A DNA stretch of 63,953 bases, counting the filler, from Chrysochromulina tobinii (Eukaryota): assembly GCA_001275005.1 (NCBI GenBank). It is 6 parts of 6 records of this genome, joined end to end, with 100 filler letters (N's around TTAATTAATTAA, not from the genome) between each part and the next. Parts side by side here need not be neighbours in the genome. Positions count along the whole stretch, not along the records: positions 1 to 19,666 come from JWZX01001346.1; 5 more parts are not named here. One strand, 5' to 3'. This document shows positions 1 to 19,766 of this stretch, piece after piece. The notes beneath the pieces are model-generated. The model saw only the letters and a program-made list of their open reading frames with translations, searched no databases and had not been told where the DNA came from. How positions within the stretch are numbered: the stretch's first letter is position 1; each line of letters begins with the position of its first letter. Position numbers and translations under genes: made by a program.

Positions 1-76
1 TAGATGCGTCTAGCACGAGCGCTGCGTCTGTGTATAGCTGCTCAGCGTCTCAGATTATCTACCCGAGGCTCGCAAG

Positions 77-219
77 GTCAGCTTCCTCTGATGGCCACTG
101 ATGACCACTGATGACCCGGATGACCCCTGATGACCACAGATGACCGTTGATGACCTCTGATGACCACTGATGGCCAATGAATTGTCACTGATGGTCGCCG
201 ATTTCCACTATCGTCGCAG
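77..219 (+). repeat. Probable GT-AG intron filled with a 10-bp tandem repeat (CTGATGACCA-like)
   Basis: AAG|GTCAGC at 77 and CGCAG|GTG at 219 flank about 9 degenerate 10-mers. Splicing joins DYLPEARK to VLKILSRAT (ORF 220..903), suggesting a + strand gene entering from outside the window. Confidence 0.6.
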
Positions 220-473
220 GTGCTCAAAATACTCTCTCGGGCTACTGCTGCTGCTGGCGGCCATCGTGTGCGAGGTGCGCGGCACGCCCCTCTCCGCACC
301 TCTCAGCTTGCAACGGCTCGCATGCAAGTGCCCATCACGGCGCGTCGCCTCCCCTCTCCTCCCCGTCACAGGCGCGCCCATCACGGCGCGTCGCCTCCCC
401 TCTCCTCCCATCACGGCGCGTCGCCTCCCCTCTCCTCCCCGTCACAGGCGCGCGGCAAGCCGGCCAAGGACCA

Positions 474-1337
474 TCAGCGCTCGCCGCCGCCCACCAGCGA
501 GCATGCACGCGCTCCATATGGCGCGGTGTGCGGCGGCGCAGACGACAGCCCAGGCGCCGAGCTGGGCGCCGAGCTGCGCGGGCTGGGCGCCGTGCTGGGC
601 GCGAGCAGCGGCGGGAGGCGCGCCCGGGAGGGCGCCCGGGATGTTGCCTCTCCGGAGCCCAAGGATGATGACCACGACGGCCCGACGCGAGCGAGCGCCC
701 GTAGCGTCGCATCTAGGGGGGCGCTCGTCGGTCCCGGCTGTTTCAGATCGGAGCGCGGGCTTGCAGCGTTGTCCAGAGCGCGGTCCTCCTTGCCCTCGAG
801 CAGGTGCAAGCAAAAGGACGCGAGGACCACATCAAATGGACCGGCTGCAGAGCATCGACTGTCCAGCTGGCCGTTCGCAATGTCTCCGAAGGACCAGCGA
901 TGACAACGGCGTCCCGTGCGCGCCTCGTAGCATGCGTGCGTGTAGGGGTCGCACGCTTCGGTCTGGACTGCCCTCGGAGGCGTGATGACTTCCTTCATGG
1001 CCGCTTCGAACGCGAGCGTGGCCTCGCCGCCGCCGCAGGCAAGGTCGAGAACGTGGACGGCCGGCATCGGCCACGGCACCACCCACCTTTGCAGTGCGTT
1101 GCGCATGCAGGAGAAGAGGAGTGGTGCGTGCGGGTTCGTGTATTCTGCACCGTGCGCCTTGTAAAAGGCTGGCGCACCCATGGCCTCGTATGCTCCTCGG
1201 ACGCTAGAGAAGCCGCCGCTCGTGCCACTGTCGCCCTTGGTGGAATTCGAGGAGGCCGCCATCGCCACCGCCGCAGCACTCGCTGACGACGCTGGCGATG
1301 GCTGCCGCCGCGTCTTCCAAATGGCGGAACGGGGCAT
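474..1337 (-). CDS. Class I SAM-dependent methyltransferase-like protein
   Basis: Motif I VLDLACGGGEAT, acidic post-beta2 EACDP and FDVVLASFCLHL (motif II/III-like). Start (1337 or 1262) and 3' end are uncertain. Confidence 0.7.
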   Translation of the reverse strand: MPRSAIWKTRRQPSPASSASAAAVAMAASSNSTKGDSGTSGGFSSVRGAYEAMGAPAFYKAHGAEYTNPHAPLLFSCMRNALQRWVVPWPMPAVHVLDLACGGGEATLAFEAAMKEVITPPRAVQTEACDPYTHACYEARTGRRCHRWSFGDIANGQLDSRCSAAGPFDVVLASFCLHLLEGKEDRALDNAASPRSDLKQPGPTSAPLDATLRALARVGPSWSSSLGSGEATSRAPSRARLPPLLAPSTAPSPRSSAPSSAPGLSSAPPHTAPYGARACSLVGGGER

Positions 1338-1594
1338 AGGACCCGCGGGGCCCCGTTCGTGTGAAAGAGCTGGTGTGAACGACCGGGTTCCGTTTGTTCC
1401 AAGAATCCTCCTGCTGGCTCACAACAATCGAACAGTGGCGTTGGCGGCGTGCGCGCGGCTGCGCACCTGCGCGCCTGCCTGCGGCGCTGCGCGGTGCACC
1501 TCCCGAGGTACAATCTCTCGATAACTCTCGATATCTGATCTATTACAATTGTAGACAGACGTGGCAGGCGCACTTGAACATGGACTACTCTGAA

Positions 1595-2734
1595 CTACCC
1601 GCTCAAGAAGCTGCGTCGCATGCGCGAGGTGGCTGCAGCGGCAGTGCCCGCGACCGACATCTTGGGCGAAGTCTTCGGCAAGCGTTGAGGAGGGGCTGCC
1701 TTGGCCGTGGAGGATGCCATGGCGGCGGCGGCGCTCCGAGGGCTCAGCGTCGTGTCAGCAGCTGTACTTGGCGTCTTGGGCCGTGGCGCCTTGGGCACTG
1801 CTGTCCTGGGCGAGACCGCCTTGGGCGATGGAGGCCCGCGAGGCGAGAAGGCCTTGGGCGAGGGCATGGGCGAGGGCATGGGCGAGGGAGGGAGCCCTCT
1901 GGCTCCCACTGTGGACGATCCCAACCCATACTGTGACTGACCTGCATACTGACTTGAGCGTGATGAAGCGGTGGTCGCAGAATACAGTCGGCTAGCGGCA
2001 TGGCCCTTCGAGGGCGTTGTCGGGACAGAGGGTTGGAAAATTGGCAGTTGGGCTAGCAGCTTGTGCGGCGCCAGGCGGCGCGCAGGGCCGATGCCGTTAT
2101 CGCTGCCGTTGCCTTCGCTAACCTTGCTTTCGCCTGCTGATCCAGCCATTTGAGGGGATGTGGCTGCCGTAGGCAATTGGGGCCGTGTGGCCGACCTGGG
2201 AGATGAGCTCGGCTTGGGTGACGGCTTGGGCAACGCAGCCTTTGTTGCCCGTGGCGTACGCGGCGCTTCGGCCGCCACCTTGAGATCCGCAAACCGTAGC
2301 TTGTCGGCTTGGGCGGAGAGTACAATTGCCACCACCACAACTCCAAGCGCGCCGACGCTCTGCGCGTGCACGGCGCCATTGCGCAGGGCACTGATTAAGT
2401 CGGCCTCGAGACGGCAAAAGAGCTCCGGACAGGTCTGGAGTGCTGCCGGGAGCGTCGCTCTCAGCTCGGACTCCACAAATTGTACGAGAGCTGGCAGCGT
2501 GGCAACGGCGGGGTGCAAGTAATGCTGCAGCGTGGTGAGAGCAGGATTTAAGGATTGGTGCAGCACGGAAACAGCGGCTCGCGAGAATTGCTGCAGCGCG
2601 GCAACTGCGGGTTGAAAGGTTTGCTGCAGCACGTGTACGCGGCCCTCCAGTGAGCCAATTAGCAACTTGATCCCAGCCGATTGTATTGCAACACTGGGTT
2701 CAGGCGCAACTTGCACAACAGGAGACTGCGCCAT
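1595..2734 (-). CDS. Hypothetical protein, one hydrophobic segment and a Ser/Pro-rich disordered C-terminus
   Basis: 379-aa ATG-initiated ORF flanked by AT-richer intergenic DNA; no family motif recognised. Confidence 0.5.
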   Translation of the reverse strand: MAQSPVVQVAPEPSVAIQSAGIKLLIGSLEGRVHVLQQTFQPAVAALQQFSRAAVSVLHQSLNPALTTLQHYLHPAVATLPALVQFVESELRATLPAALQTCPELFCRLEADLISALRNGAVHAQSVGALGVVVVAIVLSAQADKLRFADLKVAAEAPRTPRATKAALPKPSPKPSSSPRSATRPQLPTAATSPQMAGSAGESKVSEGNGSDNGIGPARRLAPHKLLAQLPIFQPSVPTTPSKGHAASRLYSATTASSRSSQYAGQSQYGLGSSTVGARGLPPSPMPSPMPSPKAFSPRGPPSPKAVSPRTAVPKAPRPKTPSTAADTTLSPRSAAAAMASSTAKAAPPQRLPKTSPKMSVAGTAAAATSRMRRSFLSG

Positions 2735-3065
2735 CGCGCCTTTTCGCAGAGGCCGCGGGGATACAACCCGGAAACTTGCGGAGGCGATTCCTCAATTGTT
2801 GTTTCCAAATCTTAATTAACGAATCTCAAAATCGGCTCTGAACCACGCATCGCGTTGGTACGCCGCAAAGCTCGGGAACTTAGGACGCCTGTTGAATGAT
2901 AGAATACGCGAACAATAAATTCTGCAAACGCTAACGACACGCAACACGGATACATAAAAAAACGAAATAGGTAATAGCGAATGCGAGGTAAGCGTGCAGG
3001 GTCAGCGGAAGCACCATCCTAGAGAGGCACCGGTGAGCGGTTCCACTGGCCTTGGTCAGACGTCG

Positions 3066-3109
3066 CTACCAGACGAACGAGCCCGTCTTTTGTGGCGATG
3101 GCATCAGCC

Positions 3110-3140
<31 letters not shown>

Positions 3141-6100
3141 CACCACGAACACGACGTCGTCCGCCTTCTGAGCCGCAGTGCGCCGCAGGCCCTCATACCT
3201 TCCGAGAGAGCGCGAGGAGGCCTCACACAAGCGCAGATAGAGCGGCGCGTCTTTGCCCACCTTGACGTCCTTACCACCGCTGCCGCCGCCGCTGCCGCCG
3301 CCGCCGCCCTTGGCGCCGCCCTTGGCGCCGCCCTTGGCGCTGCCCTTGGCGCCCGACATGACGCTCGCCTCGAGTAGCTGCACTTCGCGCGAGAGCACGG
3401 CCTGTAGTGCTTCGAGCACGCCCGCCTCAATGGCCATGATCGAGCGGAGGGCGGAGTCGTACGTGAGCTTGAGCAACGCGTTGGCACCCGCCTGCACCAC
3501 GTGCTTCGAGTGCCGGTGTGAGTTCAGCGCCGTTGCGATCGCGCCCAAGGCCCCCGAGTCGGCTGCACGTTGCTTGGAAGCTTCGCAGTACGCGAGGCGG
3601 CCTAACAGGTCAATGCCAGAGGCTTGGACACCCTCCACCGACAGGTGCACGCCAAGCAGCTCGACGACCACGTCCACCAACCCCCGCTCCTCGAGCGACA
3701 AGGGTGCCTCCTCCTCTACCTGCCGCCGAGGCATGCACGCCGTCGCCGCCGGGAATTCGAATCCAAACCCGAACCAATAATTGGACTCCGTGGCGGACGA
3801 CGCCGGTGTGGCGTCGCGTGGTGTCCCCGTACCGCTTGACGATATGACCCGAGCGCCGCCACGAGCGCTGCCACTGCCACTGGCGCCGCCGACGACGCCA
3901 GCACGAGCCTTAGCAGCCTCAGCAGCTGTCGCCGCCGCGCCGGCCGCCCCCACCCCCGCCTTCGCTTCGTCAATTGCTTCGTCCTCAAGTCCACTCTCTT
4001 CCATCTCGACCAAATGGCTCAGCCTCGCGAGCGCCGCTGCTGCGACGAGAGCGTGCGCGCCCGCCTCCTCCGCCTGGAGCACACGGAACGTCTCCTCGGC
4101 AGAGGCGGCATGCAGGCTGCGTGCGACCGCGAGCACGCGCGCCGTAACGGGCGCGTCTCCTTCCGAGGCCGACGCCGTAACGGACTCGTCGCGCGCCGTG
4201 TCGAGCGCCTCGGAAGGCGAGGGCGCGCTGGGCGTTGTGGGAGAGGTAGGGACGGCGGCGGCTGCAGTGGCAGTGCCGGAGCCCTGTGGGGAACTCGACT
4301 GTGTGGAACTGCAGTGGCACTGTAGGGAACTCGACGCGCTCGCGCCGTCCGCACTGCCGCCGTCGCCGCTCCCGCCGCCACCGCCGCCATCGCCCCTGCT
4401 GCGTCCGTTGCGAAGGGTGTCGGTGTGAAGGGCGTCGGTGTGAAGGGCGTCGGTGTGAAGGGCGTCGATGTGAAGGGCGTCGGTGTGAAGGGCGTCGGTG
4501 TGAAGGGCGTCGGTGTGAAGGGCGTCGGTGTGAAGGGCGTCGGTGTGAAGGGCGTCGGTGCGTCGCGCTTGGTTCGGTGCGCGAGGGGACGGAGAAGGAG
4601 AGCGTTCAGCGGCCGCGGAGCTGTGGGGAGATGCGGCGGAAGGGGGCGGCACCGCGGCAGGGTGCTTCCTGCGCGTCGTCGAGGGAGACTCTGTCGGCGA
4701 GGTGGGTTCTTCTTTCTTTCGAATCGGAGGCGACGGGAGATTGCGGGAGATCGTGGTCGGGGCGCTTGCGACGGCGCGCGGCACGGCGGGTTTGGACATG
4801 CCCTCGAATTGGACGACGCGCGGCCGATGAGGGGCTTCATTGACGACGCGCGGCTGATGAGGAGCTTCATTGACGACGCGCGGCTGATGAGGAGCTTGCG
4901 GAGGGCTGCTGCTGAAGAGGACCGTCGGCGACGTGGTCTTGGCGGCCCTGGGCTTGGGCGAGGTGGACTTGGGCGAGGTGGACTTGGAGACGATGGCCGT
5001 CGGCGACGTGGTCTTGGCGGCCGGAGGCAGGGGAGCCGAGCGCTGCGGAGGTGAGGACGAGTGGGGCGAGATCGAGGGCGAGATCGAGACCGGCGAGAGC
5101 GGCCGTTTGACGAACCCGAGCAGCGGCGGAGGCGACGAGTGCTGCGCCTCGGCCAACAAATCTTCAAGGATCCTCATCAGGTGCTCATCGCGGCAGGCGG
5201 GCCGTCTGGAAGGCGTGTCGAAGCGCTTGAGGTCCCCGTGTGGCACCTCGAAGCCGGCCGTATTGGACTTGACGTAGACATCCTCACCGACGACGCGCAT
5301 GTAGCTCGGAGCGAGCCCACGTCGCGGCGTGGCGTCGATCAGGTGATGCGCGGCCTGCCCGATGTCGTACCCCGTCGTGTCGTACCCCCTCGGCGTGAGA
5401 GCGAGCGGCCGCCACGTCTGCGGATCCCACTGGCGAGCAGGCCCCTGGGCGAACACGGTTTGGCCGTGGAAATGCTTCTTCTTCTTCTTCTTCTTCGTGA
5501 TCACGATGAGGGCAGCTTCGGGTTTGGCGGGTGCGGCGCCGAGCGCAGCACTTGCATCCTCGAACGCCATGTGGCGCTCATCCTCGCCCATGCTCGCGAA
5601 CGCCTTGCGCTCATCCTCATTTATGCTTGCGAGCGCCTTGCGCTCATCCTCGCTCGTGCTCGCTAACGCCTTGCGCTCATCCTCGCTCGTGCTCGCTAAC
5701 GCCTTGCGCTCATGCTCGCTCGTGCTCGCTAATGCCTTGCGCTCATGCTCGCTCGTGCTCGCTAATGCCTTGCGCTCATGCTCGCTCGTGCTCGCGAGTG
5801 CCTTGCGCTCGGCATCATTCATGGAAGCGAGAGCCGCTGGCGGAGATTCCGGGCCGTCGGGCTTTGGCATCGGCTTTTGATTCCGCTTCGGCTGCTCCTG
5901 CGGCTTCGGCGACGCCTTACTGCGCTCCTTTCTGCGCTCCTCGCCGAGGAAGATGGGAGCGAGGAATGTGGCCGCATAGGACTTGCCTGGCGATGTGTCA
6001 AAAAACTCGTGAGAAAGATCGGCCTCCTGCGTGGGACGATGTAACACTGCCAGCGAGTCCAGGAAGAGCTGCTGCCACGCGTGCTTCTTTCGTGTCTGCT

Positions 6101-6152
6101 CCAGTCGGTGAGAGGCGGTGACGGCGGTGATAGTCCCCGCCCACGCGCTCAT
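3066..6152 (-). CDS. Low-complexity repeat protein with C-terminal armadillo-like repeats
   Basis: Long open frame with likely start MSAWAG at 6152. C-terminal ARM-like segments (LVDVVVELLGVH...VQASGIDLLGRLA; GALGAIATALNSH...VVQAGANALLKLT). Contains internal coding tandem repeats. Confidence 0.65.
4418..4560 (-). repeat. 15-bp coding tandem repeat (TDALH)n, about 9 copies
   Basis: GTCGGTGTGAAGGGC repeated on the + strand. Confidence 0.95.
5575..5815 (-). repeat. 33-bp coding tandem repeat (ASTSE[HD]ERKAL)n, about 7 copies
   Basis: GCCTTGCGCTCAT[GC]CTCGCTCGTGCTCGCTAA[CT] units are visible. Confidence 0.9.
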
Positions 6153-6434
6153 GATTGCCGACAGTGGCCTTGACGATGGTCGTCGTCCTCGGAGCTTTCG
6201 TACAGGGAACTTACTTGTTCGATCGCATACGCGACGCCACTCGGGGTGCCAAGTCTTTTGGTGGCCAAGTTTGTGTCCTAAAATGGAAATAAAGGTCCTC
6301 GTGAGGACACCAACCGTCTCGCTCGACCGGCGTAGTCGGCCGCGGCGCGCAATGCATGGCATCGTTCTGTGTGTATGTCTCCGACCGTTTGTCCATTAAA
6401 ACTCACTCACTGTGTATGTCCCCGACTGCTGGAT

Positions 6435-9400
6435 TCAGACCGTGACCTGACCTTCCCACGCCGCAGTGGGCCGTGGGAGCGGTCGCGCCCCGAACCCGCG
6501 CCAGCGACGGCTCTTGCGAGGGCCCGCCCGGAGAAAGGCGGCGGCGGCAGTGGCCGCTGCGAATGGGAGCTTGCGGCGTGGGGGCGGAGGCGGAGGGCGC
6601 GCAAGGGGCGTTGTTGATGCCTGACTTGCGGGGTGTGGGAATGGGCTGGTTCGCCCACGCAGCTGCTGGTACAGTCTGGCTGCGAGAGAGCGCGCCGTGG
6701 CGGCGTACTGGATGTACTGCAGTCCGTTGTCGTAGTACGTGAGCAGTGCAGGAAGAGCCACCGTCCCGGCGAGGAGCGAGTACGCGGAGACCTGGGAGAG
6801 GAGCGGCGCCGTCCAGGGCGCAAAGCACGCGATGAGCAGCGTCAGAGACGAGATGGCCTCATTCAGCTGACTCATGCCGTCGATCCAGCAGCCAAGCCGG
6901 TCTGACGCTGGCCTTCGGATGAGGATCCACGCGCCGTACGCCATCTCGAGCACCAGCAAGGGGACGAGCTGTGAGGGGCCAATCGCGGCCGGTGAGCTCG
7001 ACGCGAGGATGGCCGCGGTGATCAGCTGCACGAGCAGAGCGATGATGACCGCGCAGGAGCGGTCGGGAGCATCCACACGATCCAAAAAGGAGCCCCACTC
7101 CTCCAGCGCATCGGATGCGTCGATCAGGGGCTGCGCGATCTGGTTCGATCTCGTGGCGCGATTCCCAATTAGGAAACAGTCCTCGAGGAATAGGTGGGTC
7201 AGTCGACGGCCTGAGGCGCTCTCCGGAGGTGACGAACCCTTGGTGGAAGGTGACGAACCCTTGGTGCAAGGGCCAGGGCAGGTCCCACGGCGCGCCAGCA
7301 GGCGCTCTGAGCGAGCTGGCTCAATGGGGACTGCCGGTGCGCTGCAAGCTCCATAGGAACGGTCGATCGGCGCGCGCGCGCATCCGCATCGGAGTGCCAC
7401 GTAACTCAGAGCGCGGCAGAGGGGGTCCTCCACGGCCGACGTGCCGTCCAGCCGCTGGGCGCTCTTCCAAATCGTCGATGCGAACGCATGATAAAAGTGC
7501 AGCAGCTGGTACGTCAGCACACTCACCTGATGAAGGAGGCAATCAGCGGTCCTCAGTGGTCCTCAGTGGCCATCAGGTGGTGCGTCAACACACTCACGAT
7601 GAAGAGCATGAGCGCCAACACGACGCTCGCGTACGCAATGAAGGCGTCCATACGAGGGAAGGGGATGGGTGTCGAAGAGCTTTCGCTACGGACGGCGAGG
7701 GTCCAGACCGCAAAGCAGGCATTCGTCAGGCCGGGTAGGAAGAAGACGAACACAGCGAGCTCTGGCTTCCACCCGACGAAGGCGCGCGGCCACGGGATGA
7801 AGAAGCGCCAATGGCCCCGCCCGACACAGAGCCGTTCGAAGAAGCCAGCGGCTGCGACGGCCACGTCTTCCACGTCCTCCAGGTCGCCGCTGAGGAAAGC
7901 GGGGTTCTTCTGCCCGGCTGTGTCCGAGTCGCGCTTCGCAACCGCCCATCGGATCCACGCGCGCCAGATGCACCTGATGAAGGAGGCAATCAACGGTCAT
8001 CTGTGGTCATCAGTGGCCATCGGATCCACGCGCGCCAGATGCACCTGATGAAGGAGGCAATCAGCGGTCATCTGTGGTCATCAGTGGCCATCGTATCCAA
8101 GCGCGCCAGATGCACCTCGCGCGCCCATGGAGCAGCCCGAGGCCGCAATCAGCATGCAATCAGAATGCAATCAGAATGCAATCAGCATGCAATCAGCATG
8201 CAATCAGCATGCAATCAGCATGCAATCAGCATGCACCTCGCGAGCCCATGGAGCACAAGCACGCCAAGCAGCACGAGCGCGCCGGTGATACTCAAGTCGA
8301 GCAGCGCGTTGATGGCAAGGGGCAGGTTCGCAGGCTCGGTGTCCTCCTCGACCAGTCGCCGACGTGGCATGGCGGGGGTCTCGAGTGACTCCGAGCTGCC
8401 GACGATCGCGTCCCATACACCGCTGGCGCCCAGAAAGGGCGTCAGCGCGCGGCCCAGCGCAGCGCCCATCCCCGCGTTCGTGCCCTGGTCCGAACCAGTC
8501 TCGCCTCCTCGCAAGGCGAGGCGCTGCACACCCATGATGAGGAGCACCGCGCGCCCCGCGGCGTCCGAGGAGGAGCTCGACGAGGAGCCCGCGGCAGCGC
8601 CGCCGCCGCTGGCAGCGCTCGAGACGGCGCTGGCGACGGCGCCTCCGACGGTCGAGACGACGCTGGATGCCACGGCGACGGCAACGGCGGCCGACACAGT
8701 GCTGCTGACTGCGGACAGCTCCAGCGCATCGACTAGGGGCCACTCGATGACTGATGGCTGGAGCAATTGGCCTCCGAGGGGGCCACGCAGTAGCGAGACG
8801 TGTAGCTCTTGACGAATCTCGAGGGGCAGCGCGGCCAAGGCGGTTGTGGGCAGCGTGGCCAGCACCGAGGCTGGCAGATTCGCCAAGGCGGATGTGGGCA
8901 GCGTGGCCAGCACTGAGGCTGGGAGACTTGCCAAGGCGGATGTGGGCAGCGTGGCCAGCACCGAGGATGGGAGACTTGCCAAGGCGGATGTGGGCAGCGT
9001 GGCCAGCACCGAGGCTGGCAGACTCGCCAAGGCGGATGTGGGCAGCGTGGCCAGCACCGAGGCTGGCAGACTCGCCAAGGCGGATGTGGGCAGCGTGGCC
9101 AGCACCGAGGCTGGGAGACTTGCCAAGGCGGTTGTGGGCAGCGTGGCCAGCACCGAGGCTGGCAGGGTTTGGAGGGCGGTGCTCGGGAGGGACGCGAGGG
9201 TGGCGATTGAGAGCTCTGAAGGCAGCACTCTCAATGACATGGGTGAGGCCACCACGACGAGCGACGACACGCCCAGCGTAGCCGCCGCGGGGATAGGGTT
9301 GAGGAAGAGTGTGCTAGCGGCGGCGCTCACGGCGCCCGTCGAAGCAGCAGTAGAGAGGGCCACCAAGACGGCAATGAGGAGGTGCTCCACGCTGCTCGAG

Positions 9401-10200
9401 GCGTGGCTGAGATGGCGCCGGCCAAGCGATGGTAGCGTCGATTGTATCCCGATCGGGTCGGGCACGCCCACGGTGCTCACGTTGATCGCCACATCAGCGA
9501 CGGTCACATTGGGCAGCGCCGCGGCGAGCGTGTGCACGAAGGCCGTGCCGTTGAATTGGGACGCAGTCAACGAATCGGCCAGAAGGGTAAAGCTGACCAA
9601 GTTCAAGAACGCATCTCCGGGGCTGAGTGGCGGCGCGGGTGGCGCGGGTGGGGGTAGAGGTGGACGCGGTGGCCATGGCGACTTCAATACTGGCGGCAGA
9701 GTGACGGGGACGGGAGGTAGGTCCACGGAAATGGGTGGTGGTGCTATGGCGACGGGAGGTAGGTCCACGGAAATGGGTGGAGGTGCAATGGCGACGGGAG
9801 GTAGGTCCACGGAAATGGGTGGAGGTGCAATGGCGACGGGAGGTAGGTCCACGGAAATGGGTGGTGGTGCTATGGCGACGGGAGGTAGGTCCACGGAAAT
9901 GGGTGGTGGTGCTATGGCGACGGGAGGTAGGTCCACGGAAATGGGTGGAGGTGCAATGGCGACGGGAGGGAGGCCCACGGAAATGGGTGGTGGAGGTGAG
10001 ACGGAGAAAACAGGAAGTGGTGGCAGAGGTGAGAGGACGACAGGAGGCAGCGACACGGGGAGAGGCGGAGGTGAGATGGCGACGGGAGGCAGCGATACAG
10101 AAAGAGGTGGCGGAGGTGAAAGGGCGACCGGCGGCAGTGTCATAGGAAGAGGTGGCGGAGGTGAGAGGGCGACCGGCGGCAGCACACTTGGGAGTGACAT
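6435..10200 (-). CDS. Multi-exon membrane protein: Pro-rich extensin-like N-terminus, 16-aa repeats and a multi-pass TM C-terminus (exons ~10200-8237, 7973-7598, 7526-6435)
   Basis: Three ORFs (8215..10200, 7553..7993, 6435..7526) join in frame via GT-AG introns 8236-7974 (GLAR|CIWRAW) and 7597-7527 (LFI|VSVLTYQ). Several hydrophobic helices are present. The true start may lie upstream. Confidence 0.75.
7527..7597 (-). other. 71-nt spliceosomal intron with repeat core, ending CTGATTGCCTCCTTCATCAG
   Basis: GTGAGT donor and CATCAG acceptor; splicing restores the frame. Confidence 0.85.
7974..8236 (-). other. 263-nt compound intron containing a (GCATGCTGATT)n array and two copies of the CTGATTGCCTCCTTCATCAG module
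   Basis: GTGCAT donor and CATCAG acceptor; splicing restores the frame. Confidence 0.8.
8830..9165 (-). repeat. 48-bp coding tandem repeat (LASLPASVLATLPTSA)n, about 7 copies
   Basis: Directly visible in DNA and in the translation. Confidence 0.95.
9705..9995 (-). repeat. 42-bp coding tandem repeat (APPPISVDLPPVAI)n, about 7 copies
   Basis: Directly visible in DNA and in the translation. Confidence 0.95.
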
Positions 10201-11206
10201 CCTGGAGCTCCAGCGGGCGCTCCTGAGTGTCCGGAATCAAGCGCTCCGGATGTCGTCGAAATCGTGTCTTGAAATGCGAGCGCGGAAACGCGTCGCGCTG
10301 AGCAGTTTTGTGGGATACATCGAGAAGCTCAAAGGACACACAAGTTCGCCCCTGGAGAAATCTGTCGTCACTGTTCGTTGGGGCGCTCAAGCTCTGTGAA
10401 CGGCATCCTGTGAATGGAGACACACGTTTAGCAAGATCTTACTACATGTATGCTATAGGGGACATACTCTCGGTGGGTGCCAAACCGATCCAAGGTTGCA
10501 TCTCGCGCTTCGGGCGCTACCGGAACTCCTGAGATTATCTCCGCGATCTCATCTCCGATATCTCATTGGAGATTATCTGCGAGATTGGATCTCTGATTGA
10601 TATACGCCCAGCCAATGACCCCTATTTCCACTGAGCGGCCAGCCATTCACCCTCTGGACCCCGTACGGGGCTTCGAATGCGACCCTATGATTTGGCTGGA
10701 GAGAGAGCTGTGGTGGTGTCTGTTCGGCTAATACTCGGAGCATTTCCCTGACATAAGATCTCGCATCGTCAGCATCTTCTTCACTAGATTTACCGAAACA
10801 GGTGCCCGGGGGGCCTAGGAATTCGGCAACATTCCTGTCAGTCCAGTTCCCAGACATGTGAAACAAACGCCCACTGGATACCAACCACTCTCGCTCGCGG
10901 CGTAACCTTTGTGTGTGACCAACGATTCCTCGCGATTGCGCGCACGAATAAGAAAACATCTTTTTCATGCTGCATGCAAAGCTGCATGCAATCCATTCAT
11001 CAATTTTGTATCAAGTATTCATCCATCTAGTTGGGATCTTGAGAGAAAGGGTCAGTTGCATCGACATATAATTGGGATCTTGATATTCCTGTGTGTCGAA
11101 AGTTCTCGTAGTCGACGATCGCGCTCAAGCTCTCACCTCTTCCTCACACATGATTCGGCGAGGCGCGTGCTGGAGCGGCGCCGAGCGGCTCAGTGGCGCA
11201 CTCATT

Positions 11207-12652
11207 ATGCTCTGGCTCTGGCCGCTTGTGCTGGGGCTTGACTTCGACCAGTCGTACAAGCACCTCAAACTCGACAGCTGTTTTGAGAAACCTTCGTGCG
11301 AAACTCAGCAGGCAGCGCACGCGGTGGTGCGCCGCGCCCACGCGTTGATCGAGTCCAAGGCAGGCCCATGGCGGTCAGGCCCAGGAACACCGCGGCGGCA
11401 GAATTGGAGCGCATTCCCTGCGCACATGACCGGTGTAAAAGGGGATTGGGAACTGACGGCGGCGCAAAGGCACTCGCTTCAAGAGGTCCAGAACACAATT
11501 GCAGAGCTTCCGCCTGTCGTCGAACGTGCGATGCTCTGGCTTGTGGTCGTATCCGTCAGCGCGACTCCTCAAGGCGCCCACGAAGATGCCGAAGACATTA
11601 TCACGACGCTCCTGCAGTCGGGTGGCTGTGAGCTGCACGTCCATCACTTCGATGCCACCAGCGAGAGCGACCCGGCCTACCAAAGCTACATGCAGCTGGA
11701 GTGGTACAGACGCGCTCGACCGCGCTTCCGACGCGTCTTCTTCCGAATAGAAAATGGCTGCAAGTCCGAACAATGGCGCGAGTCAATGCGCCTGCTGCTC
11801 TCCACATCAAGCGCTTCGCGATACACTCACGTTTGGTTCCTGGACAGTGACCTAAGGTTTGGCCTCTTCGACATGCCGGCTTTCCGGGCTTTGATTGCGC
11901 ACACAGCTCCAGTCCTTGCACAACCTGGCATTGTGAGTCACAAGCACGGCGCGAGAGCCACAGACTACTGGTCTCTCAGAGCCGGATTGCACAGCAATGT
12001 GCTCGGTCGGCGGCGGCTCATCGGACTCGAAAATGATTTGAAAATGAGCCCAGTTGAGGTACAAGCGCCCCTGCTTGATATGCGCATGGTACCGGCGTTC
12101 TACAAGAGCACGATGCATTACGATACCCGAATCGACACGCCACAACAGCGTGCTCTCAACCGCGTGGCGTGGAAGCTTGCCCAGCTGTTACACCCGCTGC
12201 CCAGAGCCAGACCGCAGTGCAACGTGACATCCGCCAAAACGTCCGCCGCACCTTCTGCTGTGGCTTCATGGGCATCCCAAACCGCCTCACTTCAGATCGC
12301 CCAACTCGACCAGGCTGCCAAACGGCCTGCTGGTCTCGTCTATGACTGGACGCCTCTGATCCACCGGTGGCGAGGAAGGCTGCCGCCAAAGCGAGGAAGG
12401 CGCGGACCCCCTCACGGACCCCCGGCGATACCGGCGACACGAAAACTGACACATAACATCGGCTCGCAAGAGCACGATTTTCGACAAATCTCACAGTGCG
12501 TGCGGGGTAATGGCGTCACGAGTGATCAGAGGGCTCGAACGGTTCTTGTCGAGGATGCCCAGCACCGTTTGATGACCAACAGCACGGATCTTTTTGCGCG
12601 TGGTGAGATCGACGTCAGCTGCCAATGGGATTGGTTTCAGCTGACATTATGA
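11207..12652 (+). CDS. DUF707-like putative glycosyltransferase with N-terminal signal peptide
   Basis: MLWLWPLVLG is signal-like. YTHVWFLDSDL (DxD), LAQPGI and VEVQAPLL resemble the DUF707 motifs YIFLWDEDL, ISQP and VEIMAPVF. Confidence 0.55.
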   Translation: MLWLWPLVLGLDFDQSYKHLKLDSCFEKPSCETQQAAHAVVRRAHALIESKAGPWRSGPGTPRRQNWSAFPAHMTGVKGDWELTAAQRHSLQEVQNTIAELPPVVERAMLWLVVVSVSATPQGAHEDAEDIITTLLQSGGCELHVHHFDATSESDPAYQSYMQLEWYRRARPRFRRVFFRIENGCKSEQWRESMRLLLSTSSASRYTHVWFLDSDLRFGLFDMPAFRALIAHTAPVLAQPGIVSHKHGARATDYWSLRAGLHSNVLGRRRLIGLENDLKMSPVEVQAPLLDMRMVPAFYKSTMHYDTRIDTPQQRALNRVAWKLAQLLHPLPRARPQCNVTSAKTSAAPSAVASWASQTASLQIAQLDQAAKRPAGLVYDWTPLIHRWRGRLPPKRGRRGPPHGPPAIPATRKLTHNIGSQEHDFRQISQCVRGNGVTSDQRARTVLVEDAQHRLMTNSTDLFARGEIDVSCQWDWFQLTL

Positions 12653-13208
12653 GCCTATCCTTCGTTCTGCTACTGTCCAATACGACGTCCTGAGTGGGAC
12701 GGTCAGTACCGTCTGGATGTCAGCAAGGCGGTTGATGGGGTTGGTTGGGGGTATTTGACTCTTTGGAGCTTGACCGTGTGCGGGGGCTTGACCTTGGGCG
12801 CCGAAGTCGGCTCTCCATCAATTGCTCTCCATGCTTTCGCGCGTGACGGCAAAAGGCGGCCGCTTCACGATTCCGGGTGGGAATCCTGGTGCCCGCCTTT
12901 TCCGTTCACACCTTCGCCCCCGGCGATGAGAGCTTCACATGGCTTCACCGTTGAGCGGTTGCGGCTCATCTGCCCGCGTGTGCTCGTAGCAGCGCCCCAC
13001 TCGTTTCGATCCATACACTCTTGGAGCTCGGGGCTCAGTAGGAATTACTTATCATTAGGGCTTCAGCCGAGAATTCCTACACGATAGTTGGTAAACTGTT
13101 GCATGCAAGGAGCGAATCTGTCCAGCGTTGGAACCAACGGAAAATGTTTGTTGATGAGGACGTCGAAAGAAATCGTCGCACGCTCAGACTCACACGACAG
13201 GAGGCTGA

Positions 13209-14723
13209 ATGAGTCAAGATCCAGAGATACTTCGGGTTACACAAGGCATTCCCCAGCCGCCGTGCGCAGATTGGGGCAAGGAGCACTCGCACGCGTCGCG
13301 CCGATGCATCTGGCACTGCATCTTGCAGAGCGACTATCACTCGCTCATGCGGCAGAGCCCGGATGTGATGCTCTCAGTCTTGCAAGCACACCTCGTGAGC
13401 AAGAAGCAGGTGAATGAGCATCCGCTGTGGCCGCGAGGTGCAAACACAGTGCAGCAGCTCATGCGTCAGCACACTCGCGACAAGTTGGACTTCATCATTC
13501 TGATCATGGCCATCGCCCATAGCAAGGACGAGCGATGCGGAAGGCTCCTCTCATCGCCCTCATCGTCGACCGTCGAGCAGCGCACCCCGCCGTCTCCACC
13601 GGCATCGGAAGGGCTGACGTGCGGGCCGACGAGCGCCTTCGACGTGCGTAGCCTGCCTTACCGTTGGCTCCCCGGCTTGCCGTACCCGCGCACGACGCTC
13701 AAAGAGGGCCAAACGGCCGGCCGACGCCGCTTCGAGGTGATGCACATCGCAGACTACTGGCCCGGGCCCATGTGGCTGTACCACGCGCCGGGCTCGGGGG
13801 TGTGGTGGGACCCGGGCCCGCGGGTGATTGTGGCGCGAAATCTCGTCGATGCGGTGCTCAAGTTCAAGACGATGAAAGAGATCATCTCTCATCTCAATTG
13901 GGTGGAGCGTGGCGACCGGCGCGTCGAGCGCTTCCGCGCGTGGGTCAACTGGCGAGTCGCGTACGGCCGGACGCCGTGGGAGACGGTGCTCGAAGGTGCG
14001 GCGGCGGGCAATACCAGCTACACGCCGTTCGCATCCGCCGGCGCTCTTCTGGGCATGCTTCTCACAGAGGCCCCTCCCACGACGGTGGATTCCATCATTC
14101 TCAGAGAGCAGAGCCACTTTTGGCCGCGGGGCTCGGGTTGGCCCACGGGCGATCAGTGGTTCGCGTCGTCGATGGTCTCGGCATGCAACTCGGACGGCAC
14201 GAGCGGTACGGCGCGGGCGGACGGTCGGCCGTGGGGTCGCGAGTACCACATCCCCGAGATGGTCGATCTCCGAGCTTCGAGATCCAACAAGCGAGGCGAG
14301 CTCGCGAGCACGGCACCGCCTGCAAGAGCCTCGCGGCGTGCTCGGCGGACCAGCGCTTCTGATTGCGAGTCTGATGAACCTCGTTGCTCGTTCTGATTCA
14401 CGCTCTGATGGCCTCCTTCATCAGGTAAGCACGGCACCGCCTGGCGAGCCTCGCGCGACATTCCACAGAGCCTATTCCTCTCGCTCACAGCAGATGAGGC
14501 GGGCACACGCCCGTGCGCGCGCAGCTTCTGGAACGGGCTCTGCACGAGCTGCTCGAACCGGACTGAGCGGCTGTGCCAGTGCAGCCTCTCCAAGCTCACG
14601 CCGAGTGGCCATCCGAAGCCGGGGCCGAGTGCCCGATGGATCTCGCTCTCGGGGATCACTCGGCCGGACTTTGACGCGGCGCTGGCGCGTCGTTGCTGCC
14701 TCGCGCAATTGGAGGGGTTGTGA
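13209..14723 (+). CDS. Hypothetical protein, probably with an intron at ~14296-14490 and a Cys-rich last exon
   Basis: 395-aa ORF with protein-like composition (MWLYHAPGSGVWWDPG). The downstream exon ADEAGTRPCARSFWNGLCTSC...LEGL* follows CACAG at 14490. Confidence 0.5.
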
Positions 14724-14990
14724 GAGCTTGTCCTGATCCTGTGTGATTTGTTTGCCGCCCGCGCCGCATCTTCGCCGCGGAATCCAAAAGTTTATGCGAG
14801 CGCAAAGTTTGATCTCACGCGTATTCTGAGCGGGCAGTAACAGTGCCGTAGCACCGGTTGTCGCGACTGTCGTGTTAACGTTCACACACGTGTCGCGTCT
14901 GTCGTGTTAACGTTCACGCGGCACGGGGAACTCTCCATTCGCGACGCTCGCTACGGCATTTGGTCTTCCTGTCGGCGCTGCAGAAACTTA

Positions 14991-15911
14991 ATGCCCGCCG
15001 CAAATCCGCCGACCGTCGATGCACTCCTGGCGGGAGGCATCGGTGGCGCCTGTCTCTGCCTCGTGGGCGCTCCTTTTGATGTCGTCAAGGTGCGACAGCA
15101 GCACCACCCCTCGTCATCCGCACTCGAGGTCGTTCGCTCGATTGTGCGAGTCGAAGGCATCCGAGGCCTGTGGCGAGGAGTGACGGCACCACTCTTGGTG
15201 GCGGTGCCCCAGTTTGCCGTCGTCTTTGGCGCGTATGCGATGGCGCGTAGCCTCGTGCAGAGGATCTCCTCCAAACCGCAGGAAAATGCTCGAGATACGG
15301 CTGTCGCGGGAGCGCTTGTTGCGCTGCCTACCTCATTCATCTATACCCCAGTGGACCGGGTGAAGCTGGCCATGCAGGTGGATGGGCACAGAGTCGCCTC
15401 GGGACAGGTGGCGCGCTATTCTTGTGTGCGCGAGTGCATCTACGAGCTATGGCGTGCCGGCGGCATCGCCAGCTTCTCGAGAGGCTTCACAGCCACGCTG
15501 GCGCGCGATGTACCTGCGTGGGCGACTTACTTCGCGGTCTATGCTACCCTCAAGCAGACGCTCTCTCCATCGACCGGGGTGCTCGATGGCCGTGCGAAGC
15601 TCTCCCCGGCCGCGAGCCTCGTCGCCGGCGGCGCCGCCGGTGCGGCCTCATGGGCCGTTTGCTTTCCAATCGATGTGGTCAAGACGCGGTTCCAGTCGGA
15701 TCTGACGTACCGCACCTACCGGTGCACCATACGGGCCGTGCTGCGCAGCTCCGGGATCGGCGGCCTGTTTGCTGGCTACTGGACGATCGTGCTCGGCGGC
15801 GTGCCGCGCGATGCCGCATGCCTTACCGGCACCGAAGCCGCGCAGCGAGCGCTGACCTTGCGTCGCCAGTCAATTTCGCTAAGTCTGGACCCGACCTACG
15901 ACGCTAGCTAG
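14991..15911 (+). CDS. Mitochondrial carrier (SLC25), carnitine/acylcarnitine- or amino-acid-carrier-like
   Basis: Three Px[DE]xx[KR] signatures (PFDVVKVR, PVDRVKLA, PIDVVKTR), plus GLWRG and RDVPA motifs. Confidence 0.93.
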   Translation: MPAANPPTVDALLAGGIGGACLCLVGAPFDVVKVRQQHHPSSSALEVVRSIVRVEGIRGLWRGVTAPLLVAVPQFAVVFGAYAMARSLVQRISSKPQENARDTAVAGALVALPTSFIYTPVDRVKLAMQVDGHRVASGQVARYSCVRECIYELWRAGGIASFSRGFTATLARDVPAWATYFAVYATLKQTLSPSTGVLDGRAKLSPAASLVAGGAAGAASWAVCFPIDVVKTRFQSDLTYRTYRCTIRAVLRSSGIGGLFAGYWTIVLGGVPRDAACLTGTEAAQRALTLRRQSISLSLDPTYDAS

Positions 15912-15922
15912 TAGCTTTAGTA

Positions 15923-16761
15923 TTAAATTTTTAGCGGTTCCGTTAGTAGGCTAGTATGCCCCTGATCCACAAAGTCAGCTCCCCAGATCATCATCTCCCT
16001 CACGGAGGCCTCGCCGCGCAGCCTGAGAAAGTCGCTGGGCTTGCCGTAGGCCTTGCGCATCCGCTCGTCGCGCATGGGGGAGATGCGCGTCACGGGCAGG
16101 CTTCGGAAGTCCCCGGGCAGCAAGTATGAAGGCTGTTTCATCCACGGTAGTACCTGTAGCACACACGGTGCACACATCGTATTGAAAAGAGTGCACGGGC
16201 GCAGTGCAGAGTGCGGGCACTGTGTGAGTCTGGGGGTGGTACGCTTGGTAACGAGCCGTCGACGCACTGCGTTGCGCGGAACGTGGCGGTCATCTGACGA
16301 TCGAGGAAGAATGGAACATGCACAGAGGCCATGCAGCTCGAGATGAGGTCGCCCCGGTCCTTGAAGTCTGAAACGGCGACCTCTTGGGTCCATGGTTTCG
16401 TCAGCGATGTATCCTTAAGCAGCGAGACCTCGCGCACTAGCACGCTGACGCGACCACGGCAACGGTCCGCTGCGTCCGCTGGTAGGAGCTCGTCGAGCCA
16501 GCGATGTATGATCGGCCCCCAGATGCCGTACAAGCCCCAGGGGCCGCGATCAAAGACGCCAGCCTCGTTGCTCAGCATGACCGCCAAGTCGAGAGCTTCT
16601 TCCATGTCCGTGCCGCACGCGGCAAGTGTCGCGGCTAGTGCTCCCGCACTCGCGCCCACCATTGGTGTGGAGGCCAGATCAAGCCTTCGGCTCAGTCCAG
16701 TGATGGCACCGGCTTGCCACCAGAAGAAGAGCCCACCACCAGGGAACGCCAAGCCTCGCAT
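15923..16761 (-). CDS. Patatin-like phospholipase, intron 16242-16154
   Basis: Oxyanion FPGGG, nucleophile GASAG, SVHVPFF and DGS motifs. A GT...CTACAG intron joins DGSLPS to VLPWMKQ. Confidence 0.85.
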
Positions 16762-17439
16762 AAAAAGGCGCTCACTTCTCTTTTCAAGTGTGAACGTCTG
16801 GAGCTGTGAACAATCGCTCCAGATTTTGACGACCTAGCCATTGTACGGTTCGTCGGTTCCACTTCCTGCGCGGCTGTACGCGTGTGGTCGGTCTGGACGG
16901 GGGACCTGGGGGTGCGTATCGTTTTACGTTTATGCAGAAACGTACTTAAAACGTACCTGTGTTTGCGTGACGGGGTGCCTGCTACACGCGACGCACCCGC
17001 TGCGTATTCTCACCCAGCGCTCGCGTGAACACACGCCTACCTGCGTTGTAACGCATCCTGTGGTGCGTAAACCCGCACGTGGTGCGTACATGCTCAATCA
17101 TGCATTTCTGCACCGGCCACACTTTCCCCACACTGCGCACGTCTTTGCGTCCATGTGCGCCTAGCGCGGCGTGGAGCGTGCGATGCGTACATACGCACCC
17201 ACCTGCGTGTATGCACCCCGCGACGCTGATACTACTCGCCGGGAACCGACCGAACGTCATGCTCTCTGAAACTAAAAAGCGAGCGGTACGGTAGCGGGTA
17301 CGGGGTAGCGGTACGGGGGATTGCTCTGCAGGGCGGGGCGGAGGGATCGCGGTCCCAGCCCTGGGGCGGCGGGAGGCATTGCGGCCGCGCCCCGCGCCCC
17401 GCAGCTCACCGACTTCACCTCGTTCAATAATTGTTCATC

Positions 17440-19666
17440 TCAGATACGCAGCTTTAACCCAGCCTTTCCTTGCATTGCCTTCCGAATCAAAGCCTCCCCT
17501 TCCTCGCCAATGCAAGGGTTGCACTTGAGGTTGCACTCGGTCAATGCGCCATTGACGCACAGAGCGTCGGCAATCGCCGTGATGCCCTCTGCAGCGTAGG
17601 TGCCGCGGTAGGCGTTCACTTCGCAGAGTGAGTTATTGGAGAGGTCCAGGCTCGTCAGCGCGCCTGTGACGGCCACCATGGCGGCCACAGACTTTGCTCC
17701 CACTGGACCGATGCGGGTCTCTACCATGCTCAGCGACGCGAGCTTGGTCTCCTTGTTGCTCAGGATGGCCTCGCAGACTGCGCTTACGCCCTCATCCTTG
17801 AGCTCGTTGAAGGACAAATCCAGGGCCGTCAGCCCGCCGTTGACGCCAAGCATCTTGGCCACATGCTTGGCACCTGCTGCCCCTCCGATGTTGCTGTTAC
17901 TAAGGAAGCCTCCACTCAGATCGAGCTCCTTGAGCGTCTTGTTCTGTTCCAGTGCCTCGCAGATGGCTTTGGTGCCCTCCTCCCCCAAGTTGTTCCTGGC
18001 GAGCGACAGCTTCGTCAGCACGCCTGTGACGGCCACCATGGCGGCCACAGACTTTGCTCCCACTGGACCGATGCGGTTCATGACCATTTTGAACGACGCG
18101 AGCTCAATCTCCTTGTTGCTCAGGATGGCCTCGCAGACTGCGCTTACGCCCTCATCATTGAGGTCGCTGGACGACAAATCCAGGGCCGTCAGCCCGCCTG
18201 TGACAACAGCCTGTGACAGGTCCGACGCCAGTAGGATCGCATCGGCCGGCTCGAGGTACTTGTTGCGGAAGTCAGCGGTGGTCTGGTCGCGCCGGATGCC
18301 GCAGAGCGAGATACCCTTCTGCTTGGCGACCTCAGCGAGCATCTTGGCGGACTCCGCATCAAGCTGATTGCCCAGGAGGTTGGTCACCGTCAGCGCGCCA
18401 TTGACGCACATGGCGTCGGCAATCGCTGTGATGCCCTCTGCAGTGTAAGTTCCTCTTCCACGAGAATCGAGGCCGCACAGCTGGTTGGAGCTGAGGTTGA
18501 GGCTCGTCAGCCCGCCGTTGACGCCTAGAGCGGCGACGAGCTCCTTGATGCCCGTCATGTCTTTGCCGTAGTGAGTGAGATTATTTCCGGACAGGTTGAT
18601 GCTCGTCAGCCCGCCTGTGACAACAGCCTGTGACAGGTCTGACCCCAGCAGGATCGCATCAGGCGGCTCGAGTCCCGTGCGGGAGAAGTGAGCAGTGGTC
18701 TGGTCGCGCTGGATGCCGCAGAGCGAGATACCCTTCTGCTTGGCAACCTCAGCGAGCATCTTGGCGGACTCCGCATCAAGCTGATTGCCCAGGAGGTTGG
18801 TCACCGTCAGCGCGCCAGTGATGCTCGTGCGGAGCGCCTCGGCGATCAGCTTGACACCAGCAGGGCCGATGTTCTCAAAGGAAGCGTCCAATGACATGAT
18901 CTTGCTGTCCTTATTGCCGCAGATGGCGGCAAAGATGGCTCCCCAACCCTCGTCCCTGAGCTTGTTGCCCCTGAGCTTGACAGACGTCAATGCGCCGTTG
19001 ACGCGCAGAGCGTCGGCAATCGCTGTGATGCCCTCTGCAGTATAATATCCTTGGCAAGATTCATTGACGCCGCACAGCTGGTTGCCTGAGAGGTCCAGCT
19101 GCAAAACAAATCAAAGCAAGGCAAGGGTTAGAACAGAAAGAGGCTACTCTAGGGAGGTCAGAAAGTGAGCACCTGTGTCAAGGCGCCATTGACTCGCAGG
19201 GCGTCGGCAATTGCCGTGATGCCCTCTGCGGTGTAGGTGCCATGTTGGTCTCCTTCCCAGTCAGTCCAGATGCCGCACAGCTGGTTTCTGGAGAGGTCGA
19301 TGCTCGTCAGCCCGCCCATGACAGGCACGAGGTACGCAAGAAGCATGCCACCTTCGACGCCGATATTTCTCTCTTGCAGGTCGAGCTCAGAGACGGAGTC
19401 GTCGCGAATCATCTGCACCGGTATGCCGCGAATCTCGCCAGAGCCGGCGCAGGCGACAGCTGCAAGCAGTAGCTCGAGCGGCGGCTCGCCTTCTCCCTCG
19501 ATGCAGCTGAGGAGAGCGGTTTCGGCAGGGCCTCCAAGGAACGGCCTCTCGTCCTCGTCCTCGTCCTCGTCATCATCACTCTCGTCCAGATCCACCCCGC
19601 GGACCGCGGTCACATTCACCTCGAAGCCCTCCCAGCGCAGTCGGGCCAGGCTGGGCAGCATCCTCC
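17440..19666 (-). CDS. RNI/NLRC3-like leucine-rich repeat protein (5' truncated at contig end; intron 19172-19099)
   Basis: Repeats such as LTSLDLSxNxL and GITAIADALRVNGALT. A phase-0 intron CAG|GTGCTC...TTTGCAG|CTG joins ORFs 19158..19661 and 17440..19104. Confidence 0.9.
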
Positions 19667-19766
19667 NNNNNNNNNNNNNNNNNNNNNNNNNNNNNNNNNN
19701 NNNNNNNNNNTTAATTAATTAANNNNNNNNNNNNNNNNNNNNNNNNNNNNNNNNNNNNNNNNNNNN
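19667..19766. other. Artificial contig-joining spacer (N44-TTAATTAATTAA-N44)
   Basis: N runs flank TTAATTAATTAA (stops in all six frames); the same 100-bp structure occurs 5 times. Confidence 0.99.

What the first reader, a model, noticed from the sequence alone, without database searches (positions are those of the whole stretch)
7527..8236. Introner-like introns: shared 3' module plus duplication of the adjacent exon
Seen in sequence (minus strand): intron 7597-7527 begins GTGAGTGTGTTGACGCACCACCTG, a near copy of the first 24 nt of the next exon (GTGAGTGTGCTGACGTACCAGCTG). It continues with GGCCACTGAGGACCACTGAGGACCG and ends CTGATTGCCTCCTTCATCAG. Intron 8236-7974 holds a GCATGCTGATT array, a copy of the upstream exon end (GCTCCATGGGC.CGCGAG), and two ~71-nt units. 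Each unit is a copy of the next exon start plus the same repeat core and the identical 20-nt end. Inference: a mechanism that duplicates the target site (supplying the GT donor) and inserts a stereotyped acceptor module, acting repeatedly at one site. This looks like ongoing intron gain.
Basis: partly seen in the sequence, partly recalled or inferred. Interest (0 to 1): 0.7.

Follow-up and report, generated by a model that had tools for sequence, protein, structure and literature searches.

The report
Introns that seed new introns
In a single-celled alga, two spliced introns that a close sister lineage appears to lack are each built from a copy of the neighbouring exon plus repeat sequence shared with many other introns, and they likely arose when DNA repair briefly copied an existing intron into the gene, which would let introns spread without a transposon.

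Summary
Confirmed. Both introns are skipped in RNA contigs and kept in DNA contigs. Removing them restores a 1,143-aa protein whose ~90%-identical relatives run unbroken across both sites (14 of 24 records), so gain is likely. The layout is common: at 36 of 66 non-redundant sites carrying the acceptor module, a 14-50-nt copy of the next exon's start opens the intron (control 0.6%). It is not a classical introner: the duplication is long and variable and the body heterogeneous. A second class of the same duplication-plus-repeat events lacks the module, rarely starts with GT (1 of 20) and shows microhomology where the filler rejoins the gene (10 of 16 vs 9.7%). One intron start is shared by two unrelated genes whose exon starts match over 14 nt. 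Best reading: repair copies part of an existing intron by microhomology, duplicating the target; each product ends AG|GT, biasing later events towards spliceable introns. RNA-templated insertion is the main rival. Not found in ten literature searches.

The parts
8237..10200 (-). exon 1 of the host gene (ATG at 10200 inferred from the ORF; 1,143-aa predicted membrane protein after splicing)
8237..8255 (-). end of exon 1; source of the copy at 8134-8116
   Evidence: sequence
7974..8236 (-). intron B, 263 nt, GT..AG; compound product of at least two, probably three events
   Evidence: (skipped in 2 of 2 RNA runs, short side 22 nt)
8145..8235 (-). 11-mer branch-point-like array (unit CTGATTGCATG), 8.3 copies; filler of the first event
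8116..8134 (-). copy of the upstream exon end (18/19), ending in AG; with the next 6 nt the duplicate spans AG|GT
   Evidence: sequence
8045..8115 (-). unit 1, 71 nt: 28-nt copy of exon 2 start (26/28) + 10-mer repeats + acceptor module
7974..8044 (-). unit 2, 71 nt: 28-nt copy of exon 2 start (28/28) + 10-mer repeats + acceptor module (1 mismatch)
7598..7973 (-). exon 2 (its first 28 nt, 7973-7946, are the duplicated target of units 1 and 2)
7527..7597 (-). intron A, 71 nt, GT..AG
   Evidence: (skipped in X14, retained in X11)
7574..7597 (-). duplicate of exon 3 start inside intron A (21/24); supplies the GT donor
   Evidence: sequence; ancestral-state comparison
7547..7573 (-). 10-mer repeat filler of intron A
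   Evidence: sequence
7527..7546 (-). shared 20-nt branch point + acceptor module
6435..7526 (-). exon 3 (first 24 nt, 7526-7503, are the duplicated target); weak Pfam TRP match E=0.006, below the curated cut-off
14304..14424 (+). third duplication + filler + module in another gene of the window; splice donor not determined
77..219 (+). candidate GT..AG intron made of the same 10-mer repeats, without module or duplication; shares a rare repeat variant with intron B
   Evidence: splicing untested

Best explanation
These are spliced introns, each made of a 14-50-nt duplicate of the flanking exon plus repeat filler shared with other introns, and they likely arise when break repair or a stalled DNA polymerase switches by microhomology onto an existing intron, copies its branch-point repeats and acceptor, and switches back upstream of where it left. 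Steps: (1, inferred) a 3' end at the end of stretch D, as from staggered nicks, pairs with a few matching bases in a CTGAT-type array elsewhere; (2, inferred) synthesis copies repeats and sometimes the acceptor module; (3, supported statistically) it returns to the start of D where the template's next bases match, giving X-D-filler-D-Y; (4, shown for the module class) when the filler ends at the module, the next base pair is GT at 54 of 66 sites, so D begins GT and D+filler is an exact GT..AG intron; (5, inferred) each product is a new AG|GT template, so the process feeds itself, and splicing selection removes the misfits in coding sequence; (6, partly shown) local tandem duplication then stacks units and changes array length.
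For: Splicing and ORF restoration. Sister-lineage proteins uninterrupted at both sites, 14 of 24 records, 6 of those on contigs of 8-18 kb, while 7 window-lineage records start right behind intron A. At intron A the relative reads H-Q, the intron copy H-H and the exon Y-Q: each copy keeps one state of the relative, as a true local duplication predicts. Duplication at 36 of 66 non-redundant module sites vs 0.6% of 4,290 control pairs; length 14-50, median 26 (35 sites). Entry-junction microhomology: 7 of 26 testable sites >=4 nt vs 5.8%, p=0.004. Return-junction microhomology in events lacking the module: 10 of 16 testable >=4 nt vs 9.7%, p=1.3e-4; D starts GT in 1 of 20. L001 and L057, unrelated genes of one assembly, share the intron's 5' part and have a 14-nt identity at their exon starts in different reading frames; the L057 exon start is conserved coding sequence in 16 of 22 homologues. 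An event with a 39-nt duplication is present in L118 and absent in orthologous L028.
Against: No enzyme or template molecule is identified; nothing here separates a DNA from an RNA template. Other arrays lie on the module's strand in 39 of 42 cases, which fits splicing selection but also an RNA route. Entry microhomology is modest and 9 of 35 sites were untestable. D1/D2 mismatches are not enriched at the start of D (10/204 vs 24/583, p=0.69), so overwriting of D's first bases by the template is not shown. Similarity upstream and downstream of the AG is uncorrelated across 1,953 site pairs: L001/L057 is a single example, and its RNA and read support could not be checked.
Confidence: 0.5

Rival explanations
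1. Target-primed reverse transcription: the reverse transcriptase of a LINE or Penelope-like element copies intron-containing RNA (excised compound introns or pre-mRNA) into staggered nicks, giving variable target-site duplications, a constant end and a truncated other end.
For: Variable-length duplications flank non-LTR insertions and short 5'-truncated intronic insertions were seen de novo in Chlamydomonas (PMC9977147, passages). Here: duplication 14-50 nt, constant AG end, variable 5' end with microhomology, strong strand bias, filler subfamilies sharing 43-49 nt between unrelated genes.
Against: No poly-A or other tail, no single master sequence, 20 events end inside the repeats with return-junction microhomology.
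Confidence: 0.28
2. Ordinary local slippage duplications across the splice sites of pre-existing introns, followed by loss of the older part, so that positions are old and only the sequence turns over (with loss of both introns in the sister lineage).
For: Stacked, near-identical units vary in number between orthologous loci (L008 1 vs L050 2; L029/L070 1 vs L066 2; L061 1 vs L035 6); 11 of 35 duplication sites directly follow another module; the two window introns share a repeat variant found in no other locus. This surely explains part of the stacking.
Against: 24 of 35 sites do not follow a module; relatives are uninterrupted at both window sites; L001/L057 needs copying in trans; arrays within a locus are not more alike than between loci (31 vs 2,315 pairs, p=0.27).
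Confidence: 0.1
3. A classical introner: a non-autonomous DNA transposon that carries the acceptor and takes the donor from its target-site duplication.
For: That geometry is described for introners (bioRxiv 10.1101/2022.06.06.494994, passages); haptophytes have introner calls there; the 20-mer has 5-6-bp self-complementary ends.
Against: The duplications in that paper's figure examples are 4-8 bp; here 14-51 and variable. No fixed 5' end, no end-to-end identity, weak hairpin (-0.9 to -3.1 kcal/mol), events without the module.
Confidence: 0.06
4. Assembly artefact at repeats.
For: Short-read assemblies can collapse or expand tandem units, so the unit-number differences may be partly artefactual.
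Against: Two DNA runs hold a contig covering intron A and its flanks with no difference, RNA contigs skip exactly the inserted lengths, and the duplicated copies carry their own substitutions.
Confidence: 0.02

Closest known systems
Staggered-break neointrons of Daphnia pulex (Li et al. 2014, PMC4202315; passages read)
   Same: New intron with a direct repeat of the adjacent exon end at its opposite end; repeated events at one site; ascribed to repair of staggered double-strand breaks.
   Different: Daphnia intron-exon repeats are 4-12 bp; here 14-51 nt. Here the filler is recognisably other introns' branch-point repeats and acceptor, shared across many genes, with microhomology at both joints (the source of the Daphnia filler was not in the passages I saw).
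Introners that carry the 3' splice site and recruit the 5' site from the TSD (Gozashti et al. 2022, bioRxiv 10.1101/2022.06.06.494994 / PMC9860276; 2025, PMC12130899; passages and supplement look-ups)
   Same: Many recent introns sharing sequence; donor from the duplicated target, acceptor from the insert; exact restoration of the mRNA.
   Different: No discrete element with two fixed ends; long variable duplication; mirror events without the module. The Chrysochromulina example in the 2022 paper has a 4-bp TSD and carries the 5' site, the opposite of this; C. tobinii is listed with 0 families in 2025. Emiliania huxleyi families of mean length 37-70 nt with TSD/TIR mostly marked '?' could be a related phenomenon; their sequences were not visible to me.
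Non-LTR retrotransposition (LINE/SINE, Penelope-like; PMC9977147 and PMC11167929, passages)
   Same: Variable-length duplication, one constant end, one truncated end with microhomology.
   Different: No tail, no master copy, both ends can be variable.
Intron gain by tandem duplication of an AG|GT-containing exon segment (Rogers model; recalled, and named in earlier findings)
   Same: The first event in intron B duplicates a stretch spanning AG|GT, which supplies both splice sites.
   Different: A foreign branch-point array lies between the copies, and in most sites only one splice site comes from the duplicate.
Small tandem duplications at breaks with 3' overhangs (Schimmel et al. 2021, PMC8355091; abstract and outline only)
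   Same: A known route from a staggered break to a short direct duplication.
   Different: Shown in mammalian cells, without intron-derived filler in the abstract I saw; the enzymes of this alga are untested.

Membership tests
Spliceosomal (U2-type) intron | Removed from RNA at GT..AG, restoring the reading frame | tested here: met
   intron A skipped in 1 of 2 RNA runs, intron B in 2 of 2 with a 22-nt short side
Introner | Recent gain: absent from close orthologues | tested here: met
Introner | Multi-copy family with similarity along the whole element | tested here: not met
   Only the 20-nt end is general; longest shared stretch between unrelated sites 49 nt; many repeat-unit types; one pair shares the 5' part
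Introner (DNA-transposon type) | Short, fixed-length target-site duplication | tested here: not met
   14-50 nt in 35 module sites, 17-51 nt in 20 other events; shorter ones fall under my detection limits
Introner (DNA-transposon type) | Terminal inverted repeats at both element ends | tested here: not met
   The 5' end of the filler is variable; the 5-6-bp self-complementarity is internal to the 20-mer and weak
Introner | Autonomous partner with matching ends | not testable with these tools
   no whole genome held
Non-LTR retrotransposon / SINE | Variable-length target-site duplication | tested here: met
Non-LTR retrotransposon / SINE | One constant terminus with a tail, copies descending from a master sequence | tested here: not met
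   20 events lack the module; heterogeneous fillers; no tail in the sequences printed
Non-LTR retrotransposon / SINE | Microhomology at the truncated end | tested here: met
   7 of 26 >=4 nt vs 5.8%, p=0.004; not specific to this family
Non-LTR retrotransposon / SINE | RNA intermediate and reverse transcriptase | not testable with these tools
   needs genome and experiment
Break-repair neointrons (Daphnia type) | Direct repeat of the adjacent exon at the far end of the new intron | tested here: met
   longer than the 4-12 bp reported in PMC4202315
Break-repair neointrons (Daphnia type) | Presence/absence variation among close relatives or alleles | tested here: met
   (L118 vs L028; sister-lineage proteins)
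Break-repair neointrons (Daphnia type) | Origin at a DNA break repaired by end joining | not testable with these tools
   inferred from junctions only
Rogers-type tandem duplication intron | Intron body consists only of duplicated exon containing AG|GT | tested here: not met
   foreign repeat filler lies between the copies in all window cases

The most novel reading that the evidence does not exclude
Transposase-free, self-propagating intron spread: existing introns serve as repair templates throughout the genome, each new copy carries an AG|GT joint that steers the next event to a GT and so to a perfectly spliced intron, and whole introns can jump between unrelated genes by a dozen bases of chance homology. 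The CTGAT microsatellite plus acceptor would be a selfish sequence replicated by host repair and licensed by the spliceosome.
Probability: 0.4. Interest if true: 0.88.

Novelty: new variant of a known kind. Interest (0 to 1): 0.76.

Why it matters
How new spliceosomal introns arise is a long-open question; the two best-documented routes are transposon-derived introners and one-off break-repair insertions. This system has the scale of the first and the junctions of the second, leaves a datable 14-50-nt footprint at each event, varies between close lineages, and sits in an organism that evidently grows in culture (mixed-culture DNA and RNA runs). Rate, template and enzyme are therefore directly testable. 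Introner screens that need end-to-end similarity would likely miss or misfile it.

Tried and rejected
No whole genome was held and the loci's contigs could not be searched, so all genome-scale numbers come from 122 loci picked by an exact 20-mer. Viral contigs: 0 matches. Local-template hypothesis: not supported overall (p=0.27), though the window's own introns share rare variants. Overwriting of the first bases of the exon copy by the template: not supported (p=0.69). General link between exon-start similarity and filler similarity: none (Spearman -0.02). Hairpin/TIR role for the module: weak (z -0.9 and -2.6); the 71-nt introns are not unusually structured. Penelope-like priming by homology, which I recalled, is contradicted by the passage read. 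Replitrons (PMC10288648, passages): variable TSDs in one family only and they have direct terminal repeats, not seen here. Pfam gave no domain spanning a junction on both sides for the 27 pieces tested. RNA support for L057 and for the third window site remains untested. Look-ups of earlier findings by sequence and place gave nothing.

Full report
Setting. The window is GC-rich eukaryotic DNA made of pieces joined by N-linkers; the finding lies in the first piece (1-19666). No whole genome is held. The best named homologues of two proteins are from Emiliania huxleyi (65% identity over 67% of a window carrier protein) and Prymnesium parvum (70%, for a protein of locus L057), so the organism is probably a prymnesiophyte haptophyte; the species is not determined.

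The observation. All described parts are present; the only correction is one mismatch in the module of unit 2. Removing 7597-7527 and 8236-7974 gives one frame of 1,143 codons; removing neither or only one does not. In one search, RNA run X14 has a contig skipping exactly 71 nt at GT..AG while X11 retains it; both RNA runs skip 263 nt, with only 22 letters on the short side; neither DNA run shows these joints, and both hold a contig across intron A with no difference. About 520-530 contigs per DNA run were laid on this 2.4-kb stretch, with summed depth concentrated on the repeats, a rough sign that the motifs are abundant elsewhere in the samples (not a copy number).

Gain or loss. A search with exon 2 found 3 longer relatives; their clusters hold 24 records. 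Fourteen, about 90% identical to the window protein, run unbroken across both junctions; 7, 97-99% identical, are 360 aa long and begin right behind intron A; 3 are fragments covering neither site. Six of the 14 lie on contigs of 8-18 kb, long for a transcript of this gene, and the 360-aa records start at a GTG codon, as an unspliced prokaryote-style gene call would; I infer that the sister lineage lacks both introns in its DNA. At intron A the relative reads H-Q, the intron copy H-H, the exon Y-Q, so both copies descend from one ancestral exon stretch. Without an outgroup, double loss is not formally excluded, but a still-recognisable exon duplicate inside each intron favours gain.

How general. 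With a slightly wider module pattern there were 213 sites, 115 followed by non-repeat sequence, 66 non-redundant. At 36 of these 66 the next 50 nt are copied, from their start, within 250 nt upstream (control 0.6% of 4,290 pairs). Three of the 36 are the window's own sites, one (L075) is an intron-internal duplication that I dropped from later counts, and two of the 66 (L025, L093) look like chance matches and count as misses. The base after the AG is G at 62 of 66 and GT at 54 of 66. In the remaining 35, D is 14-50 nt (median 26); 24 do not follow another module. Removing D+filler gives long open frames at many single-unit sites, including non-multiples of three such as L001, L004, L015, L017, L071, L095 and L100 (not RNA-checked). 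Fillers are arrays of 10-12-nt units around CTGAT, which matches the recalled branch-point consensus.

Junctions. Where D ends and filler begins, the match to repeat arrays of unrelated loci extends >=4 nt into D at 7 of 26 testable sites (9 of 35 untestable) against 5.8% for random exon positions, p=0.004. A second search for D-filler-D events that do not end in the module gave 26 events, 20 non-redundant, D 17-51 nt. Only 1 of 20 starts with GT, and at 10 of 16 testable ones the start of D continues the repeat for >=4 nt (control 9.7%, p=1.3e-4). So the return point follows what the template would read next; it is not an intrinsic preference for GT. After the module the template reads GT, which explains why D starts GT in that class. 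Some module-less events look like mirror-type introns, with the acceptor inside D and the donor formed at the D/filler joint (L023, L058; read from the sequence, untested), and the first event of window intron B is of this kind, its D spanning AG|GT.

Copying in trans. L001 (EF-hand protein) and L057, on two contigs of one assembly, have introns that begin with the same 30-odd bases; their downstream exons share 14 nt but in different frames. The match of the intron start to the exon is 16 nt in L001 and 14 nt in L057, and the L057 exon start is conserved coding sequence (D-T-D-G-S-I in 16 of 22 homologues, including P. parvum). The simplest reading is that the L001 intron was copied into a site that happened to match. 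This is 1 pair among 1,953; RNA and read support for L057 is not available.

Ongoing change. Orthologous loci from different assemblies (90-99% alike) differ in unit number and array length, part of which could be assembly collapse. L118 carries a 39-nt duplication with filler that L028 lacks.

Mechanism. I commit to microhomology-guided template switching during repair or replication, with existing introns as templates and splicing as the filter (0.5). Shown: splicing, duplication, shared filler, junction statistics, uninterrupted relatives. Inferred: the break, the template, the positive feedback. Reverse transcription of intron-containing RNA at staggered nicks explains most of the same features (0.28); local slippage explains stacking but not single-unit gains or L001/L057 (0.10). 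That these are recent gains built from duplication plus shared intron sequence is much more secure than the enzymology (about 0.85).

Literature. Ten full-text searches found no description of this architecture in haptophytes; subscription papers are mostly outside the library. I read passages of bioRxiv 10.1101/2022.06.06.494994, PMC12130899, PMC10288648, PMC9977147, PMC11167929, PMC4580454 and PMC4202315, and the abstract and outline of PMC8355091. Supplement searches for two 10-nt pieces of the module found nothing in 12 of 14 files of PMC12130899 and in the one, truncated, file of PMC9860276; these tables may not hold family sequences, so E. huxleyi or Chrysochromulina introner families listed there could overlap with this phenomenon. 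The closest precedent is the Daphnia break-repair neointron; the introner label fails on element ends, duplication length and family homogeneity. Verdict: a new variant of intron gain, real and apparently active, interest 0.76.

Noticed in passing
window 14304-14424 (+): Third duplication+module. Exact removal from 14304 (GC start) does not reach the more protein-like downstream frame; a GT at 14338 (87-nt intron, leaving the duplicate in the mRNA) or a GC at 14308 does.
   Followed up: partly
module, e.g. window 7974-7993 read on +: The 20-mer is a quasi-palindrome: its reverse complement also offers CTGAT near the start and ends in CAG, so it could provide a branch point and acceptor in either orientation.
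   Followed up: partly
L040:61-300: A duplication+module lies antisense to the neighbouring repeat-filled intron, so at least one event seems to be in the reverse orientation to its gene.
   Followed up: partly
L019:552-582; L006:535-564: Non-GT duplications that seem tolerated for other reasons: in L019 D ends in a TGA that may be the gene's stop; in L006 a GT 9 nt into D would keep the frame.
   Followed up: no
L024 vs L073: L073 is ~80% alike to L024 in one half and near-identical in the other (possibly a chimeric contig); the diverged half lacks a CTGAT-repeat intron that L024 has in a sirtuin-like gene.
   Followed up: no
L046, L035, L111, L014, L020: Stacks of up to 7 units joined AG|GT: candidate recursive-splicing sites with zero-length exons.
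   Followed up: no
window 8834-9165 and 9709-9993 (-): Coding tandem repeats (16-aa and 14-aa units) in exon 1 of the host gene; the 16-aa repeat has fewer copies in the relatives.
   Followed up: no
window 19667-19766, 29768-29867, 50694-50793, 56018-56117, 62016-62115: Artificial linkers (N44, a 12-base AT spacer, N44): the window is several pieces joined, so order across them is not evidence of linkage.
   Followed up: yes
window 6567-7975, run X11: An RNA-library contig retains intron A in full: intron retention, pre-mRNA or DNA carry-over.
   Followed up: no
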